A DNA stretch of 64,000 nucleotides from Nitrosopumilus sp. (GCA_965207445.1 CBDBLX010000002.1:1367849-1431848); one strand, 5' to 3'; counted from the stretch's first letter, positions 31,061-36,051 are shown. Notes: a model not told the origin generated them from the letters alone. Made by a program: numbers and translations.

Positions 31061-31393
31061 GTAAAAGATTCCTCCTGTTGGTGCGTTGTGATGTTTTGCC
31101 GTGCATCTGTGGGTTCTCCTGCAAACGCAGTTGATCGGTGTTTATATGAACTTTTTATCTGGATTTGATATTTGAGGTTGAAAAAGTGTAAGTTTTTAGT
31201 ACTTTATTGTGTGACTATGACGGTAGTTTGGAATAGGAATAGTTAGAGTCAGTATCGAAAAGACAAACGAGGGTGGTTCATCTTGAAGAAATTAGATTGT
31301 ACACCAAAAATGATAGTTTGATTTGGCATCAAAACACAAACAGATGTAGAGTGTTTTTATATATGATGTGTAATGTGCAGAATCTGGCAATGA

Positions 31394-32699
31394 TTAGGTA
31401 GAGGCATGTATGGATGCGTTTTGAATGAGTGTTATCCAAGCATCACAACTATCTGCAAGATCAGAGCCTTTTACTGGTATAATGTCAATTCCAATTGCCT
31501 TGGCAGGCGTCATGTTGTTTTTGAGGCTTGTGTGTTTTCTAAAAAAGTTACGATATACTATGATCAGACGTAAGAGTCCCTGGGTCATCTGATTTTAGTC
31601 CACGTACACACTTGAGTCTATCCTCAAATTCTCCGTTGAGTCGTTAGTAGACGTTATTTTGATTAAAAAGGTTCTGTATGTGTATCTCGCGTATGTGTAC
31701 AAACGCCGATCCTGCTCGTCTAAAGAATACTTTTCTGGCAGGCTTTATGAACTCCTGCCGTCCATCACTTACAAGTATGCGTGGTAGCCTACGCGTACGG
31801 ACAACAGCCATTTGAAACAGGTTAGTGGGATCAGATCCCTTTTTGTTCTTGAGAATCGAGGGATAAAACAAATCGGCTTGCACCATCAATCACACCAAAC
31901 AGATATCGAGTCTGTTTGCATATTTTGAATTCTAACTCGTCGACATGCCACTGAAACCATGTATCAAGACACAACAAACTTGAGAACCGTAGCATGATTT
32001 GCGAATACTCATCAGTCCATCTATGTATTGTAGATGGGTTTACAATGATCTCATCCATTGCAAACTGCACACATACTTTTTCTGGAGACATTTTGGTTGC
32101 CATTATGGTGGACAGCTCACTTGCTATTACGAATGCATCAAAATACCACCACCCCCTCCTTGAACCCTTCCATGCTAGAGAATGTAGGGCCACATTTGTG
32201 GCACTGTATCGCATTACAGATCTTTTTCTCTTGCACTTGCGCTCTCCCCATCCTACCACATCTTTGGATCTGCATTTTGGATACTGACATCTCAATTTTT
32301 TGCGCTTAATCTGTATCCTTTTTCTACGCCCGCACCACCACTCTTTGTCTAAGAGCTTGTATACGAGCCCCCCACCATCACACATGCTTGCATATCTTTT
32401 TTCCACCTGCACTGGACTAACACTGATATCTCATTCCAAGTGAACTAAGAGACACCGCATACAATAGACCTTGCACAGTTTGCTATACGACTGTCCATTT
32501 AATCGAGCTCAGTGTAGTTATAGCACCTGCAATGCATGCAATCTGAATGCCTGCCCCTCCTAATTGCATCAATCTGAGCATTGGAGCATCTCTGCTTGCC
32601 AGACTTTGGGTTGTCATTTTCTACTATGTTTTTGATCTTGGTTGGGTAGTTTCGTCTACCACCTTTTCTTCCTGAACTATTTTTTGTTTCATTATACAT
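31394..32699 (-). pseudogene. IS6-family (DDE) transposase, fragmented
   Basis: Fragments carry a zinc ribbon, STIHRW, WHVDE..YLFGVID..SRF, LVSDG, NNVY*RLNGEF and YRNFFRKHTSL..TPAKAIGI across frameshifts and stops. Confidence 0.85.
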
Positions 32700-32781
32700 A
32701 TATCACCAATTGGACATATAAGCATGTGTGTGCGTAATCCGATGTCAGTGACGTTATAACGTTGTACTGAGAACAACAAAC

Positions 32782-32955
32782 ATGACTAAATGGGCTACCA
32801 ATGCCACGGAATTCCAAGTATCCATAACCCACAATGTGAAAAGGGGTACTAGTTACTCGTACATTCCAAAGCCGGTCCTTGCCAAACTTGGTAACCCGGA
32901 GGGTTTGAAGTTTATCATACGTGGCGACAAAATACTAGTTACGTGTCCGGATTGA
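32782..32955 (+). CDS. AbrB/MazE-like microprotein (57 aa, not in the ORF track)
   Basis: MTKWATNATEFQVSITHNVKRGTSYSYIPKPVLAKLGNPEGLKFIIRGDKILVTCPD*. Confidence 0.65.
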   Translation: MTKWATNATEFQVSITHNVKRGTSYSYIPKPVLAKLGNPEGLKFIIRGDKILVTCPD

Positions 32956-33066
32956 CTGCAACGGTTCAAATCTGTATTAATTGCCACCAACCGCGTTTGC
33001 AGGAGAATCTATATCTATGTTGGTGCTTAATAAAGAATCTCTGATTTTTGTGTGTTTTTTGGATGT

Positions 33067-33222
33067 TTGTGCATAGCATACGCTAGGGGGGTTGTTTTCC
33101 AGAGGATAAAGCGGACATGTATCTATGCGGGCATCGGTTCCCAGTATCATTCTTCATCCATTCATCAAGATCTCTATGCAATTAATTTCTCGGGCATCGG
33201 TTCCCATATATACTACGCACAA
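33067..33222 (-). ncRNA. Candidate IS110 bridge/seek RNA
   Basis: Non-coding region just 3' of the IS110 transposase; 14 bp closing stem with two G-U pairs on the minus strand; two identical 16 nt internal repeats. Confidence 0.55.
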
Positions 33223-33240
33223 TTCCTTGACCATAATTTT

Positions 33241-34467
33241 TCACTCTTTTTTTCTTGGTAGTCTTTGTTTTGCCATTTTGGTCGTGCTCTTTTTTCCCTC
33301 TTCTACACACGCCCAAAAACCAATATCTTTTTTCAACATCCAAAATACAATCCTGACCATCTTGGCAGCCGCTGCAACTTTTGCCTTTGAGCCTCCACGT
33401 TTTTGTACCAGTCGTTCGTAAAATGTACTGATTGGAGTCACTTTATTGCTTCTTTTTGCCCACGTGACGTGCGTGAGTGCTGCCTCTGATAACAAATGTC
33501 GTACAGTTGAATTGCCTTCTTTTGTAATACGTCCATGCTTTATGGTTTCTGCAGAGTTTCTCACAGATGGTACGATTCCAAAGTATGCTGCGAGTTTGTC
33601 TGGATTGGGAAATCTGGATATATCATCAATTGCAGATGCTAGTGCAAGAGCCGTGACGTTTCCAATACCGGGGCATGTTTTGAGCAAATCTGCCATATGA
33701 TACCTGTCTACCTCTTTTTTCATACGGGTGTTACAGTCTGCAATATCCTCATCAAGGTTGAAAATTGTTCTCAAATACATCTCAATTCGCCAGTCATCAA
33801 GGCCGTGTAGTCTGCTTACAAATGCATTTGAAAAGGGCGCTGCCTTGATCTTGATTCCCTCTTGTAGCAGTATGCCATGTATGAGATTTTTGTACCGTGT
33901 CCTACTCTGAACTATTGCACTCCTGCATCTGACAAGGTGTTTTACTTTGATTATATCATCTCCTGGTACGTGACTTGCTACAATGTAACCTCCACGCAAA
34001 AGGTCTGCTAGTATTAATGCATCTACCTTGTCAGTCTTCTTTTTTGATGTTGCAATCACCTTTGTTGATCTGGGATTGGATAAGATTACATCCAGATTTA
34101 ATTTCTCCTTGAGAAATTTGTACATCCCATACCATACAGAGGATGATTCAATCACATACTTTGCACCGTCTGGAAATTTGGCAAACTTTTTTTCCACAAC
34201 CTTGTAATCACATTCTATCTTTTCATTTTCTAAAACTGTTCCATCAGATTGCATGATAGCAACCTGCATGAATTTTTTGTGAAGATCAATTCCGACAAAA
34301 TACTCTTCAGGTGTCTTTGTCGATTTCTTTTTCTTCTTTTTCGTCACAGGGCTTGTAACTGTCTTCATATGTACACTTTTTTTACCCCTAATCTGTTTGT
34401 TTGCATTTTTGGCTTTGTTATGGTTGGCATCATCTAACCTACTAGATCTGTGTTTCTTTTTTTCCAC
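33241..34467 (-). mobile_element. IS110-family transposase (DEDD RuvC plus Transposase_20 domain), apparently intact
   Basis: FVGIDLHK, VIESS, KTDKVDA, LKTCPGIG, RFPNPDKLAAYFGIVPSVRNSA, GRITKEGN, KAKVAAAAK. Confidence 0.95.
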
Positions 34468-34488
34468 ATATGATTAATTCCCAGTCAT

Positions 34489-36051
34489 GTGATTGCAAAG
34501 TATGTTTTTAAACCCATACTACAAGTCACGTTCATGATACAGTCCATAAACACCGTCTTTGAAAGATGTACGGCCACTAGTGCAATATATCTGCCTTCAG
34601 CAGGTACCCTCGCTTACTTGGATGGACATCCATTTTTGGCATGGTGTATGTGTCATGCTGCTGAAGAAGAAAAACAAGAGGCAAGGCCTGACAGTGTACG
34701 AGAGATACTCGCAGAGGCCGGCATAAAGCACGAAGCTGCTGTGGTACGGAATGATTACGGTGAGGCCGCCGTGGTGCCAATCACTTATGATACACCTGAA
34801 AAAGGATTCAAGTTGTTATTAGAAGCAGCTTTTGATGGTATTGACGTAATATCACAGGTGCCGCTTATGTATAGCCCGTGTGGGTTTTATGGCATACCGG
34901 ACATACTTGAAAGACACGATAATGAACCTAGCGCATTTGGGGACTGGCATTATGTGGTAAAGGAGATAAAGTCTGCAAAAAAATTCAAGGATACTCATTA
35001 TCTACAGGCCGCCTATTATACGCGGGCACTCGGACTCATACAAGAATACATGCCACCGAACTTCCTCTTGACAGATGGCACAGGTGAGACACACAAGATA
35101 CCATTTACAAAATACGAGAAATTACTTGATGAAGTGATATCAAGATATATGGTCATTAGAGATGGCTCCGTAAAGCCGGCCGCTACATATGGACAGTGCA
35201 ATAATACCGAGTGGGAGGATTACTGCAACAGGCTTGCAGTCGAAGCCGGCGACATCTCATTGTTGTCAGGTGTTGGTGATGGCGCGTTGCGGGGCTTGAT
35301 GATAAACGCGGGTGTTACAACGATAACTGATGTCTCAACAAAAAGTACATCAGAGTTATGTGATATACGTGGAATAGGATCTAAAAAGGCCGCCTCATTA
35401 AAGGCGCATGCCCAAGCCATCATATCAAATAAAGTAGTTTATAAGGATAAACCCTTACAGTTCCCTCAGGCCGATAATGTGGCATATCTTGACTTTGAAG
35501 GTTTTTTCCCGGCAATGATGCCGCTTGAAATGAAAGACGGTACTAAAATAATAGAACCCATTTGGATGATCGGGATGGTCATAGAGGACGAATTCAAATA
35601 CTATTTTGCAGGCGACCCATACGGCAATACCGTGGAAAAACCCGTCCAAAATATGATGGATATATTTCTAAATGATCTCCCCGAAAACAGCATAATTTAC
35701 CACTGGGGTAATTATGACCGCGCGTCTATGAAGCGCCTCTTGCAGGAGTATAGGTCTGACAGACTTGATGTCCTTGATTCTATACATGACATGCGTAAGA
35801 TCATAACTGCATCGTATGCACTACCTACTTACAGCAATGGTATCAAAGAGGTATCAAAATGGTGTGGTTTTGACTTTGCTTTCAAGCATCCTGACGCTGA
35901 CGCAGGCAATGTAAACACAGTATGGATGGGACTGATGGATGGCTCCATTAAGGATGTTGATACGGCGCTCGGTCCCATACTAGAGTATAATGAGGCCGAC
36001 TGCAGGATGCTCGAATGTGTGCATGAGAAATTTAAAAATATGAAAGAGTGA
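34489..36051 (+). CDS. TM0106-family RecB-like nuclease with HhH and YprB RNase H-like domains
   Basis: GIPDILER..YVVKEIKS..LQAAYY; LSGVG and IRGIG HhH; YLDFEG, IYHWGNYD, SNGIKEV, LEYNEADC. The start is probably near 34534. Confidence 0.88.
   Translation: MIAKYVFKPILQVTFMIQSINTVFERCTATSAIYLPSAGTLAYLDGHPFLAWCMCHAAEEEKQEARPDSVREILAEAGIKHEAAVVRNDYGEAAVVPITYDTPEKGFKLLLEAAFDGIDVISQVPLMYSPCGFYGIPDILERHDNEPSAFGDWHYVVKEIKSAKKFKDTHYLQAAYYTRALGLIQEYMPPNFLLTDGTGETHKIPFTKYEKLLDEVISRYMVIRDGSVKPAATYGQCNNTEWEDYCNRLAVEAGDISLLSGVGDGALRGLMINAGVTTITDVSTKSTSELCDIRGIGSKKAASLKAHAQAIISNKVVYKDKPLQFPQADNVAYLDFEGFFPAMMPLEMKDGTKIIEPIWMIGMVIEDEFKYYFAGDPYGNTVEKPVQNMMDIFLNDLPENSIIYHWGNYDRASMKRLLQEYRSDRLDVLDSIHDMRKIITASYALPTYSNGIKEVSKWCGFDFAFKHPDADAGNVNTVWMGLMDGSIKDVDTALGPILEYNEADCRMLECVHEKFKNMKE

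What the first reader, a model, noticed from the sequence alone, without database searches (positions are those of the whole stretch)
33067..33222. Structured non-coding RNA candidate (bridge/seek-RNA-like) downstream of an archaeal IS110 transposase
Seen: starting about 20 nt after the transposase stop, the sense (minus) strand has UUGUGCGUAGUAUA (33222-33209) pairing over 14 bp with UAUGCUAUGCACAA (33080-33067). Two of the pairs are G-U on this strand and would be A-C mismatches on the other, which favours a sense-strand RNA. The stem encloses two identical 16-mers, UGGGAACCGAUGCCCG (33206-33191 and 33143-33128, 63 nt apart), each followed closely by GCAUAGA. The CATAGATA after the second repeat recurs at 33020-33013, a possible element end. 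Known: IS110/IS1111 recombinases use a two-loop non-coding RNA to specify target and donor DNA. Inference: this is a two-loop guide RNA built from a duplicated scaffold, possibly a distinct archaeal programmable recombinase. The protein also has an unusual ~55 aa lysine-rich N-terminal extension.
Basis: partly seen in the sequence, partly recalled or inferred. Interest (0 to 1): 0.85.

Follow-up and report, generated by a model that had tools for sequence, protein, structure and literature searches.

The report
Archaeal IS1111-type guide (bridge/seek) RNA
The non-coding tail of this archaeal jumping gene very probably encodes a folded guide RNA of the bridge/seek type already known from bacteria, so it is a new archaeal example of a known mechanism, not a new kind of system.

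Summary
The sequence features are real. Window 34479-33008 (minus strand) is a 1.47-kb IS110-family element of a Nitrosopumilaceae archaeon. The candidate RNA (33237-33061) lies inside it, between the transposase stop and the right end.

Across 31 relatives a conserved fold is supported by compensatory changes: 91% of cells paired against 28-46% in slid controls. It consists of two homologous modules, each a closing helix, a guide, a hairpin (the two 16-mers) and a second guide.

The four guide segments track each element's own insertion-site flanks and own ends (permutation tests: 0/20000 for three segments, 6/20000 for the fourth). The top-strand guide lies 5' of the bottom-strand guide, as published for IS1111 seekRNAs. 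A Klebsiella plasmid IS110-family element with long subterminal repeats shows the same guide-hairpin-guide layout around one hairpin.

In this copy the donor guides match well. The left-target guide matches 8 of 10 and the right-target guide only 6 of 9.

No expression data exist. The scan reached the same reading earlier on another archaeal genome (e1-2586528). Verdict: a new member of a known kind, of moderate interest.

The parts
33008..34479 (-). IS110-family element, copy A1 (about 1.47 kb). The left boundary is 34479. The right boundary lies between 33011 and 33008.
   Evidence: A 98%-identical second copy (C2:1189626-1188156) matches from 34479 to 33011. The neighbouring element's inverted repeat resumes at TTCTCC, 33007.
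33241..34467 (-). Transposase ORF of 408 aa counted from the GTG inside the left subterminal repeat. An internal ATG lies at 34368-34366.
   Evidence: Pfam PF01548 (9.5e-22) and PF02371 (5.5e-23). The frame from this GTG is open and in phase in 40 of 42 distinct relatives.
34465..34472 (-). Left subterminal inverted repeat CATATGTG, which contains the in-frame GTG.
   Evidence: [CT]ATATGTG is found upstream of the gene in nearly all relatives. It is the inverse partner of the right-end (C/A)ACATAGA.
34473..34479 (-). AATTAAT: the last bases of the left junction. The inferred core is TA (34476-34475), followed by AT.
   Evidence: Matched in the same sense by the S2 guide. The core is inferred from empty and occupied sites in another genome.
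33061..33237 (-). Candidate guide RNA, full extent as modelled (177 nt).
   Evidence: Covariance model R1 scores 149.1 bits, E = 2.6e-28, at C2:1400909-1401085, which is these window coordinates.
33225..33231 (-). P1, 5' strand (GUCAAGG). It pairs with 33170-33164 (UCUUGAU).
   Evidence: Helix 1: 96% of cells paired, and 4 of 6 pairs show changes on both sides.
33216..33220 (-). P2', 5' strand (GUGCG). It pairs with 33180-33176 (UGCAU) and closes the target-binding module.
   Evidence: 97% of cells paired. The pair at columns 22/66 is CG in 19 rows and UA in 11.
33207..33215 (-). [quoted passage not shown]
   Evidence: Family level: the reverse complement matches each element's own right junction at 6.81 of 9 positions, against 3.98 when permuted (0/20000). 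This copy scores 6 of 9.
33191..33206 (-). H1 hairpin (the first 16-mer).
   Evidence: A UG...CG hairpin sits at this place in 51 of 52 sequences examined. Stems covary (GGG/CCC, GAGG/CCUC, GGAG/CUCC).
33181..33190 (-). S2, the left-target guide (AGAAAUUAAU), same sense as left flank plus core.
   Evidence: The 5 variable nt match each element's own left junction at 3.22 of 5 positions, against 1.33 when permuted (0/20000). This copy scores 4 of 5.
33155..33159 (-). P3, 5' strand (GGAUG). It pairs with 33117-33113 (UGUCC) and closes the donor-binding module.
   Evidence: 98.7% of cells paired. Variation is mostly on one side, so covariation support is weak.
33144..33154 (-). S4, the right-donor guide. 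The reverse complement of AUGAU matches ATCAT at the left end.
   Evidence: 4.31 of 5 against 3.74 when permuted (6/20000). This copy scores 5 of 5.
33128..33143 (-). H2 hairpin (the second 16-mer).
   Evidence: Helix 5: 94.8% of cells paired. The pair at columns 103/115 is AU in 18 rows and GC in 13.
33119..33127 (-). S3, the left-donor guide (CAUAGAUAC), same sense as right end plus core.
   Evidence: 7.53 of 9 against 6.62 when permuted (0/20000). ATAGATA, ATGGATA, AAGGTAA and ATGGGTA variants track the right end.
33074..33085 (-). P5, a small 3' hairpin (UAGC-GUAU-GCUA). Many relatives have a GNRA loop here. Its role is unknown.
   Evidence: helix 6, 82.8% of cells paired.
33027..33034 (-). 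TTTATTAA, a TATA-like box preceded by a purine-rich stretch, 5 nt upstream of the right subterminal repeat.
   Evidence: YTTAWAAA stands at a fixed distance in all 35 distinct right ends. Its function as a promoter is inferred.
33012..33021 (-). Right subterminal repeat AACATAGA plus the inferred core TA.
31112..33007 (-). Neighbouring 1.9-kb multi-copy element whose terminal inverted repeat was hit by the insertion.
   Evidence: Six full-length copies and many partial copies exist elsewhere in the genome. The repeat is GGTTCTCCTGCAAACGCGG, and four copies carry 8-bp direct repeats. In the window the GG lies upstream of the IS110 element and TTCTCC lies downstream.

Best explanation
This is the guide RNA (bridge RNA or seekRNA) of an IS1111-type member of the IS110 family, living in an ammonia-oxidising archaeon.

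The roughly 177-nt RNA is encoded between the transposase stop and the right end. It folds into two homologous modules.

- **Module 1, target-binding.** It is closed by helices P1 and P2'. [quoted passage not shown]
- **Module 2, donor-binding.** It is closed by helix P3. It carries a right-donor guide (S4, which pairs with the left end of the element), hairpin H2, and a left-donor guide (S3, which pairs with the right end).

The DEDD recombinase would bind this RNA, bring the circularised element's right-left junction together with a target, and exchange strands at a short shared core (TA, often TAAC).

Shown here: element boundaries, conservation of the RNA, compensatory base-pair changes, and correspondence of all four guide segments with each element's own junctions.

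Inferred from the published bacterial systems: that the RNA is made, that it is bound by the protein, that a circular intermediate forms, and that strand exchange follows.

In the window copy the donor guides fit well: S3 8 of 9, S4 5 of 5. The left-target guide fits 8 of 10. The right-target guide fits only 6 of 9. The copy therefore sits at a half-matching site, inside the terminal inverted repeat of another mobile element.
For: 1. **Family.** Pfam PF01548 and PF02371.
2. **The RNA region lies inside the element**.
3. **Distribution.** Transposase homologues occur in 58 of 401 genomes of the class. Model R1 finds the RNA in 35 of 38 thaumarchaeal loci; the three misses are N-terminal gene fragments. 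In the window's own genome R1 gives 5 hits: A1, A2, B1, B2 and one solo remnant.
4. **Fold.**
 - 91.3% of cells paired against 28-46% for slid partners.
 - 16 of 28 pairs show changes on both sides.
 - 0 of 500 shuffles reach the observed value on 4 of 5 measures.
 - On the alignment fitted to the model: 91.5% paired and 19 of 28 pairs.
5. **Guides against each element's own junctions, with permuted pairing as control.**
 - S2: 3.22 of 5 against 1.33.
 - Reverse complement of S1: 6.81 of 9 against 3.98.
 - S3: 7.53 of 9 against 6.62.
 - All three: 0/20000.
 - Reverse complement of S4: 4.31 of 5 against 3.74 (6/20000).
6. **Close copies differ mainly in the target guides.** 32 of 208 guide positions differ, against 60 of 1910 in the rest of the RNA (odds ratio 5.6). 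Each copy's variant matches its own flanks (L041/L080/L081, L042/L091, L074/L075, L092/L093).
7. **Empty sites in genome G305.** They read ...GTAA[CT]|AGG[TA]TAGCCCCTG, and occupied sites read CACATAGATAA[CT]|AGG[TA]TAGCC. The reverse complement of that element's S1 is ACTAGGTTAAC.
8. **Guide order and location.** They agree with the IS1111 description in PMC11187229 (abstract, sections 6, 8, 9) and PMC11208160 (passages on IS1111).
9. **A bacterial counterpart.** A Klebsiella plasmid IS110-family element shows a 7-mer match to its right flank just 5' of a hairpin and a 7-mer match to its left flank just 3' of that hairpin.
Against: - No RNA data are available: no RNA run holds the stretch.
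- No Rfam family matches.
- Model R1 does not hit the haloarchaeal or Agrobacterium IS110 loci: 0 of 3. Homology of the RNA to bacterial ones therefore rests on layout, not on a profile match.
- The window copy's right-target guide fits its flank poorly (6 of 9), as does that of copy A2 (5 of 9).
- No site matching the predicted cognate target was found in the genome.
- Copy A2 has a split transposase gene and A3 is truncated, so this family may be decaying.
- P3 has little two-sided covariation (1 of 5 pairs). An alternative pairing of GGAUGA with a downstream UCAUCC-like segment was seen by eye and not tested.
- The loci are related to one another, so the permutation counts overstate independence.
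- The exact crossover position within TAAC is not resolved.
Confidence: 0.85

Rival explanations
1. DNA-level reading. The duplicated 16-mers and the internal copies of end-like sequence would be protein-binding DNA sites (internal transposase-binding repeats or remnants of nested ends), and not an RNA.
For: The segments that match the ends are identical in sense to the DNA ends, so they could be read as DNA repeats. In genome G305 the right ends of two copies are joined to exactly these internal sequences of sibling copies, so the DNA there is recombination-prone. No transcript has been shown.
Against: The helices keep pairing through changes on both sides, with G-U pairs on the sense strand only. 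S1 and S4 match the junctions as reverse complements while S2 and S3 match in the same sense, which is the dual-strand pattern of bridge RNAs (PMC11208160, sections 6-7). Target guides change between near-identical copies in step with flanks that are not part of the element.
Confidence: 0.05
2. A distinct archaeal programmable recombinase whose RNA is a single long closing stem (33222-33209 with 33080-33067) enclosing two loops.
For: The stem exists, and the minimum-energy fold of this one sequence contains it. Its first five or six pairs can also form in the closest relatives: 8 of 31 rows have G-C at columns 21/187 and U-A at 22/186.
Against: Across 31 relatives 49.8% of cells pair, no better than slid controls, and covariation equals the shuffles. 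The 5' strand overlaps helix P2' and guide S1, both of which are supported. The architecture and guide order match bacterial IS1111-type elements.
Confidence: 0.04
3. Relic copy. The RNA family is genuine, but the window copy is no longer functional (guide drifted, not expressed), so here it is only a fossil of a guide RNA.
For: - The right-target guide fits neither of the two full copies (6 of 9 and 5 of 9).
- No cognate site exists in the genome.
- One sister copy has a split gene and one is truncated.
- S1 is complementary to the element's own 3' hairpin region, which would sequester it.
Against: The window copy has an intact 408-aa frame. All helices can form, apart from G-U pairs and an A-C mismatch at one P1 alignment column. 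The donor guides are a perfect or near-perfect fit. The model score is high (149 bits).
Confidence: 0.25

Closest known systems
IS1111-group seekRNA elements (ISEc11, ISKpn4, ISPa11, ISPst6; Siddiquee et al. 2024, PMC11187229; abstract and sections 6, 8, 9 read)
   Same: - DEDD transposase.
- Subterminal inverted repeats.
- Long non-coding region downstream of the gene.
- Short segments matching both strands of the target, with the top-strand match 5' of the bottom-strand match.
- Size: the paper reports a long RNA of 154 nt and a short one of 82 nt. Here the whole RNA is about 177 nt and module 1 about 68 nt (33231-33164).
- A preference for repeated sequences as targets.
   Different: - The host is an archaeon.
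- The transposase is longer (375-408 aa against 330-350 aa) because of a conserved basic N-terminal extension.
- The C-terminal motif reads G-I-V-P-x4-S-A where the paper gives S/T-G, occasionally T-A.
- The right end carries an archaeal-style TATA-like box.
- No biochemical evidence exists here.
- Transposase identity to plasmid-borne bacterial relatives is only 23-29%.
IS621 bridge RNA (IS110 group; Durrant et al. 2024, PMC11208160; passages read)
   Same: - Two binding modules, one for the target and one for the donor.
- Each module has one guide for the bottom strand and one for the top strand.
- A short shared core is covered by the guides.
- The guides covary with the target and the donor.
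   Different: - In IS621 the RNA is in the left end, upstream of the gene.
[quoted passage not shown]
- IS621 has only 2-3-bp subterminal repeats.
- Here the RNA is in the right end, the order is reversed, and each loop carries an inserted hairpin.
IS110-family element on a Klebsiella pneumoniae plasmid (NZ_CP104605.1, locus L137)
   Same: - A subterminal repeat pair, which I read by eye as about 13 bp.
- Non-coding region 3' of the gene.
- The hairpin GGCCTCAGAGGCC is flanked 5' by a reverse-complement match to the right flank (TATAAAA) and 3' by a same-sense match to the left flank (TCCAGTT).
- The right end reads CCATAGATA, like the archaeal CACATAGATA.
   Different: - Only 26.7% protein identity.
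- Model R1 was not run on it.
- The donor-side matches in that element were seen by eye only and fall below the 7-mer threshold.

Membership tests
IS110 family (DEDD transposases) | N-terminal DEDD/RuvC-like domain (PF01548) plus C-terminal Transposase_20 domain (PF02371) | tested here: met
   PF01548 E = 9.5e-22 (residues 58-202) and PF02371 E = 5.5e-23 (residues 260-338).
IS110 family (DEDD transposases) | Conserved C-terminal G--P----S(G) motif with the catalytic Ser | tested here: met
   The translation reads GIVPSVRNSA. The motif is described in PMC11187229 section 6 as SG, TG or occasionally TA. Here it is SA, a variant.
IS1111 group | Subterminal inverted repeats of 7-17 bp | tested here: inconclusive
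   Left CATATGTGG against right CCAACATAG in this copy gives a 5-6-bp perfect core. The sister family B has TATGTGG/CCACATA, 7 bp. This is at the short end of the published range.
IS1111 group | Long non-coding region and guide RNA downstream of the transposase gene | tested here: met
   230 nt lie between the stop (33241) and the right end (33011). The left non-coding stretch is 12 nt if the GTG is the start.
IS1111 group | Transposase branches within the IS1111 clade; length 330-350 aa | not tested
   No reference set of ISfinder proteins was on hand, so no tree was built. The length of 375-408 aa is outside the stated range because of the N-terminal extension.
Bridge RNA / seekRNA | Conserved secondary structure supported by covariation | tested here: met
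Bridge RNA / seekRNA | [quoted passage not shown] | tested here: met
   Family level: S1 and S2, 0/20000; empty against occupied sites. For the window copy alone the fit is partial: S2 4 of 5, S1 6 of 9.
Bridge RNA / seekRNA | Segments matching the element's own ends (donor recognition) | tested here: met
   (S3 0/20000; S4 6/20000). Window copy: S3 8 of 9, S4 5 of 5.
Bridge RNA / seekRNA | RNA is transcribed, binds the recombinase and is required for transposition | not testable with these tools
   No RNA run holds the stretch.
Any Rfam family | Match to a curated covariance model | tested here: not met
   No relevant match at E <= 10 in the window region or at E <= 1 in five related loci.

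The most novel reading that the evidence does not exclude
This thaumarchaeal clade may be a separately adapted lineage of RNA-guided recombinases whose expression is wired to the circular intermediate in an archaeal way.

A purine-rich stretch plus a TATA-like box sit at a fixed place in the right end. After circle formation they would lie 22 nt upstream of a GUG inside the left subterminal repeat. That would give a leaderless mRNA that adds a conserved, lysine- and arginine-rich N-terminal extension to the recombinase and carries the guide RNA as its 3' tail.

The extension and this control logic are not described for the bacterial enzymes in the papers I read.
Probability: 0.3. Interest if true: 0.55.

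Novelty: new member of a known kind. Interest (0 to 1): 0.4.

Why it matters
It extends the RNA-guided IS1111/IS110 recombination mechanism, on comparative evidence, to a widespread clade of ammonia-oxidising archaea: 58 of 401 genomes sampled carry a transposase homologue.

It also gives a fully annotated guide layout, with four guide segments, a core and closing helices, that could be tested directly.

Natural variation in this clade shows what reprogramming looks like. Near-identical copies differ mainly in the target guides, and each variant fits its own site. Guide-coding DNA can itself be hit as a mimic target.

For genome annotation, the result explains why these elements sit in the terminal repeats of other mobile elements. 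For tool development, it offers a compact mesophilic archaeal orthologue set. The principle itself is already known.

Tried and rejected
- **Rfam scans**. Only chance-level hits, none relevant.
- **Model R1 on two haloarchaeal and one Agrobacterium IS110 locus**. No hit, so nothing can be said about RNA homology there.
- **Sequencing runs**. No RNA holder listed.
- **Laying contigs of four runs of one sample**. The contigs break at the repeats. No listed piece spans the whole stretch. The only joints are two internal skips (337 and 63 nt, within the element at 34048-34386 and 34302-34366), which I did not interpret. No contig skipping the whole element and no circle junction was seen, so the boundaries could not be refined.
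- **Search of the own genome for the cognate target predicted from S2 plus the reverse complement of S1**. Only the guide-coding DNA itself and hits with 1-3 mismatches came back, none convincing.
- **Using the neighbouring element's 8-bp direct repeat to fix the insertion point**. The far-end flank cacagatg resembles the sequence upstream of the IS110 (CACATGACTG) only imperfectly. The result is inconclusive.
- **Pfam on the neighbouring element's broken ORFs**. No family found, so I do not name its family. The likeness of its inverted repeat to IS6-type ends is recalled, not tested.
- **A first hairpin finder**. It picked wrong hairpins and was replaced.
- **First end-finding patterns**. They mis-picked the TATA-like box or internal sites and were replaced.
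- **MAFFT and the model built from it.** They misalign H1 by one column in about 13 rows, so the H1 figures (69-74% paired) understate it.
On checking, it proved to be in a shifted register and was dropped.
- **A C/D-box or K-turn reading of the UGAUGA-like stretch.** Considered by eye; the motif is not conserved across families, and I did not pursue it.

Full report
**What is in the sequence.**

On the minus strand the window holds a 408-aa ORF (34467-33241) with the two Pfam domains of IS110-family transposases.

- the 14-bp complementarity, 33222-33209 with 33080-33067, including two G-U pairs;
- the two identical 16-mers, 33206-33191 and 33143-33128;

The antisense strand folds worse than its shuffles.

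**Element boundaries and surroundings.**

The window's own genome (2.6 Mb, two contigs) holds several related sequences:
- a second copy, 98% identical, matching 34479 to 33011;
- a truncated third copy;
- two copies of a 66%-identical sister family B;
- a solo remnant of the RNA plus right end.

The candidate RNA therefore lies inside the element.

DNA downstream of 33010 is the end of a different 1.9-kb element. That element has six full-length copies and many partial copies, a terminal inverted repeat GGTTCTCCTGCAAACGCGG, and 8-bp direct repeats in four copies. In the window its GG lies upstream of the IS110 element and TTCTCC lies downstream. The IS110 element therefore sits inside that repeat. 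The direct-repeat check of this was imperfect.

**Relatives.**

The transposase has homologues at E <= 1e-30 in 58 of 401 sampled genomes of the same class. That tally includes one genome flagged as unpublished, G283, of which nothing else was used.

Named records identical to some of these loci are Nitrosopumilaceae or Thaumarchaeota metagenome-assembled genomes.

The region 3' of the gene has the same layout in essentially all full-length loci.

**Fold.**

I aligned 31 of the 51 usable RNA sequences. I left out near-duplicates and rows with long insertions or strong divergence (L043, L045, L048, L051, L052, L054, L056, L057, L082, L095, L096).

RNAalifold on this alignment gave:
- P1 (GUUAGG/CCUAAC type);
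- P2' (GYGCG/UGCRK);
- P3 (GGAUG/UGUCC);
- hairpin H2;
- a small 3' hairpin.

With H1 added, 91.3% of cells pair against 28-46% for slid partners. Sixteen of 28 pairs change on both sides. No shuffle in 500 reaches the observed value on four of five measures.

A covariance model built from this alignment hits 35 of 38 thaumarchaeal loci. The three misses are N-terminal gene fragments. It hits none of three haloarchaeal or Agrobacterium loci. The fitted alignment gives 91.5% paired and 19 of 28 pairs with two-sided changes, but that alignment leans towards the model.

It reaches 49.8% paired, slid controls reach 21-50%, and 191 of 500 shuffles reach its covariation score. Its 5' strand is P2' plus the S1 guide.

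**Guides.**

I segmented 51 of 58 extracted sequences at the two hairpins. Six non-homologous or truncated rows were dropped beforehand, and one row had no H1. I located both junctions in 44 of the 51. L045, L048, L051 and L054 were dropped for insertions or missing ends. L057, L095 and L096 were dropped because no left-end motif was found.

After removing duplicates (n = 41, 43, 38 and 16), each segment matches its own element's junction better than other elements' junctions:

| Segment | Compared with | Own junction | Permuted | Permutations reaching observed |
|---|---|---|---|---|
| S2 | left flank | 3.22 of 5 | 1.33 | 0/20000 |
| S1, reverse complement | right flank | 6.81 of 9 | 3.98 | 0/20000 |
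| S3 | right end | 7.53 of 9 | 6.62 | 0/20000 |
| S4, reverse complement | left end | 4.31 of 5 | 3.74 | 6/20000 |

The loci are related to one another, so these counts overstate independence.

A signal that does not depend on deep relatedness comes from close copies. In 13 pairs of close copies, the target guides differ at 32 of 208 positions and the rest of the RNA at 60 of 1910 (odds ratio 5.6). Each variant fits its own flanks.

**Target and core.**

In genome G305 three copies sit next to AGGTTAGCCCCTG, the end of a short inverted-repeat element. The motif has 46 hits with up to one mismatch, 23 on each strand.
- Empty ends read ...GTAA[CT]|AGG[TA]TAGCC.
- Occupied ends read CACATAGATAA[CT]|AGG[TA]TAGCC.
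- Left junctions read ...GTAAC|CATATGTG.

Target and donor thus share TAAC or TAAT. I infer a core of TA, possibly longer.

Two further G305 copies have their right end joined to the S2-coding and S3-coding DNA of sibling copies. This is what one expects if guide-coding DNA mimics the sites that the guides recognise.

**Comparison with what is known.**

The seekRNA paper states three things about IS1111-type elements: the non-coding region is downstream of the gene, long and short RNAs of 154 and 82 nt co-purify with the transposase, and the top-strand match lies 5' of the bottom-strand match, the reverse of the IS110 type (PMC11187229: abstract and sections 6, 8, 9).

The bridge RNA paper describes the target and donor loops, dual-strand pairing that includes the core, and a predicted bridge RNA in the right end of 93% of IS1111 elements (PMC11208160, passages).

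A preprint reports 662 archaeal IS110 recombinases (10.1101/2024.06.21.599552, passages).

A Klebsiella plasmid element with long subterminal repeats shows the same guide-hairpin-guide layout around one hairpin.

A full-text search for IS110 or bridge RNA together with thaumarchaeal terms listed no paper, among the 15 shown of 1,949, that treats these elements. This shows only that I found none.

The scan itself reached the same reading earlier on another genome (e1-2586528).

**The window copy.**

- S3 CAUAGAUAC against the right end CATAGATAT: 8 of 9.
- Reverse complement of S4, ATCAT, against the left end ATCAT: 5 of 5.
- S2 AGAAAUUAAU against GGGAATTAAT: 8 of 10.
- Reverse complement of S1 against the right junction: 6 of 9.

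No cognate site was found in the genome. Copy A2 has a split gene. The copy is intact but may be stranded at an off-target site.

**Side observations.**

The reading frame from the GTG inside the left subterminal repeat to the [FY]VG[IMLV]D motif is in phase and free of stops in 40 of 42 distinct relatives. The leader lengths range from 51 to 192 nt. The other two frames are open in 1 and 6 of the 42. The basic N-terminal extension is therefore under selection.

A YTTAWAAA box with a purine-rich stretch before it stands 5 nt upstream of the right subterminal repeat in all 35 distinct right ends. In the inferred circle junction its 3' end would lie 22 nt from that GTG. That is the usual spacing between an archaeal TATA box and the transcription start (established knowledge, recalled). 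It predicts a junction-dependent leaderless mRNA. This is inference only.

**Verdict.**

This is a genuine, well-supported archaeal member of the known IS1111-type guide-RNA class. No expression evidence exists.

Noticed in passing
window 34467-34300 (minus strand); loci L021-L098: The frame from the GTG inside the left subterminal repeat into the transposase is in phase and free of stops in 40 of 42 distinct relatives, although its length varies from 51 to 192 nt. It encodes a lysine- and arginine-rich N-terminal extension with a recurrent ..SDG.. motif. The two exceptions are broken copies.
   Followed up: partly
window 33034-33027 (minus strand); 35 distinct right ends: A TATA-like box (YTTAWAAA), preceded by a purine-rich stretch, stands at a fixed 5 nt upstream of the right subterminal repeat. 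In the inferred circle junction it would lie 22 nt upstream of the GTG of the left repeat. This suggests a junction-dependent archaeal promoter and a leaderless mRNA.
   Followed up: partly
window 34404-34385 (minus strand): The nucleotide motif GCAAACAAACAGATTAGGGG in the leader is conserved across families. It is read in two different frames in different clades (..NANKQIR.. against ..MQTNRLG..). It is therefore conserved as nucleic acid and not as protein. Its role is unknown.
   Followed up: no
window 31112-33007: A 1.9-kb element with six full-length copies and many partial copies elsewhere in the genome. Its terminal inverted repeat is GGTTCTCCTGCAAACGCGG, and four copies have 8-bp direct repeats. 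The window copy is about 92% identical to the others, and its ORFs are fragmented. None of the ORFs has a Pfam match.
   Followed up: partly
loci L069-L073 and L099-L128 (genome G305): A short inverted-repeat (MITE-like) element whose ends read GTAA[CT]AGG[TA]TAGCCCCTGCC. The motif has 46 hits, often as inverted pairs about 95 bp apart. It is the preferred target of that genome's IS copies.
   Followed up: partly
loci L070 and L071 (genome G305): The right ends of two copies are joined directly to the S3-coding and S2-coding DNA of sibling copies. That is, recombination has occurred into DNA that mimics the guide-recognised sites.
   Followed up: partly
all segmented RNAs: The two hairpins of one element resemble each other more than they resemble hairpins of other elements: 0.82 identity against 0.73, 0/10000 permutations. 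They are identical in 4 of 34 distinct pairs, including the window's. This suggests co-evolution or conversion between the two modules.
   Followed up: partly
own genome C2:1572346-1572524: A solo copy of the RNA plus right end, without a transposase gene, 82% identical to family B (model R1: 85.8 bits).
   Followed up: no
own genome, upstream flank of family B copy B1 (C2:1285181-1285706): The 532 nt upstream of copy B1 are a repeat with at least five other copies at 96-98% identity, so this copy too lies at the end of another repeated element.
   Followed up: no
window 34489-36051 (+): A 520-aa ORF with RNase_H_2 (PF13482) and a weak helix-hairpin-helix match starts 10 nt from the left end of the IS element, on the opposite strand.
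   Followed up: no
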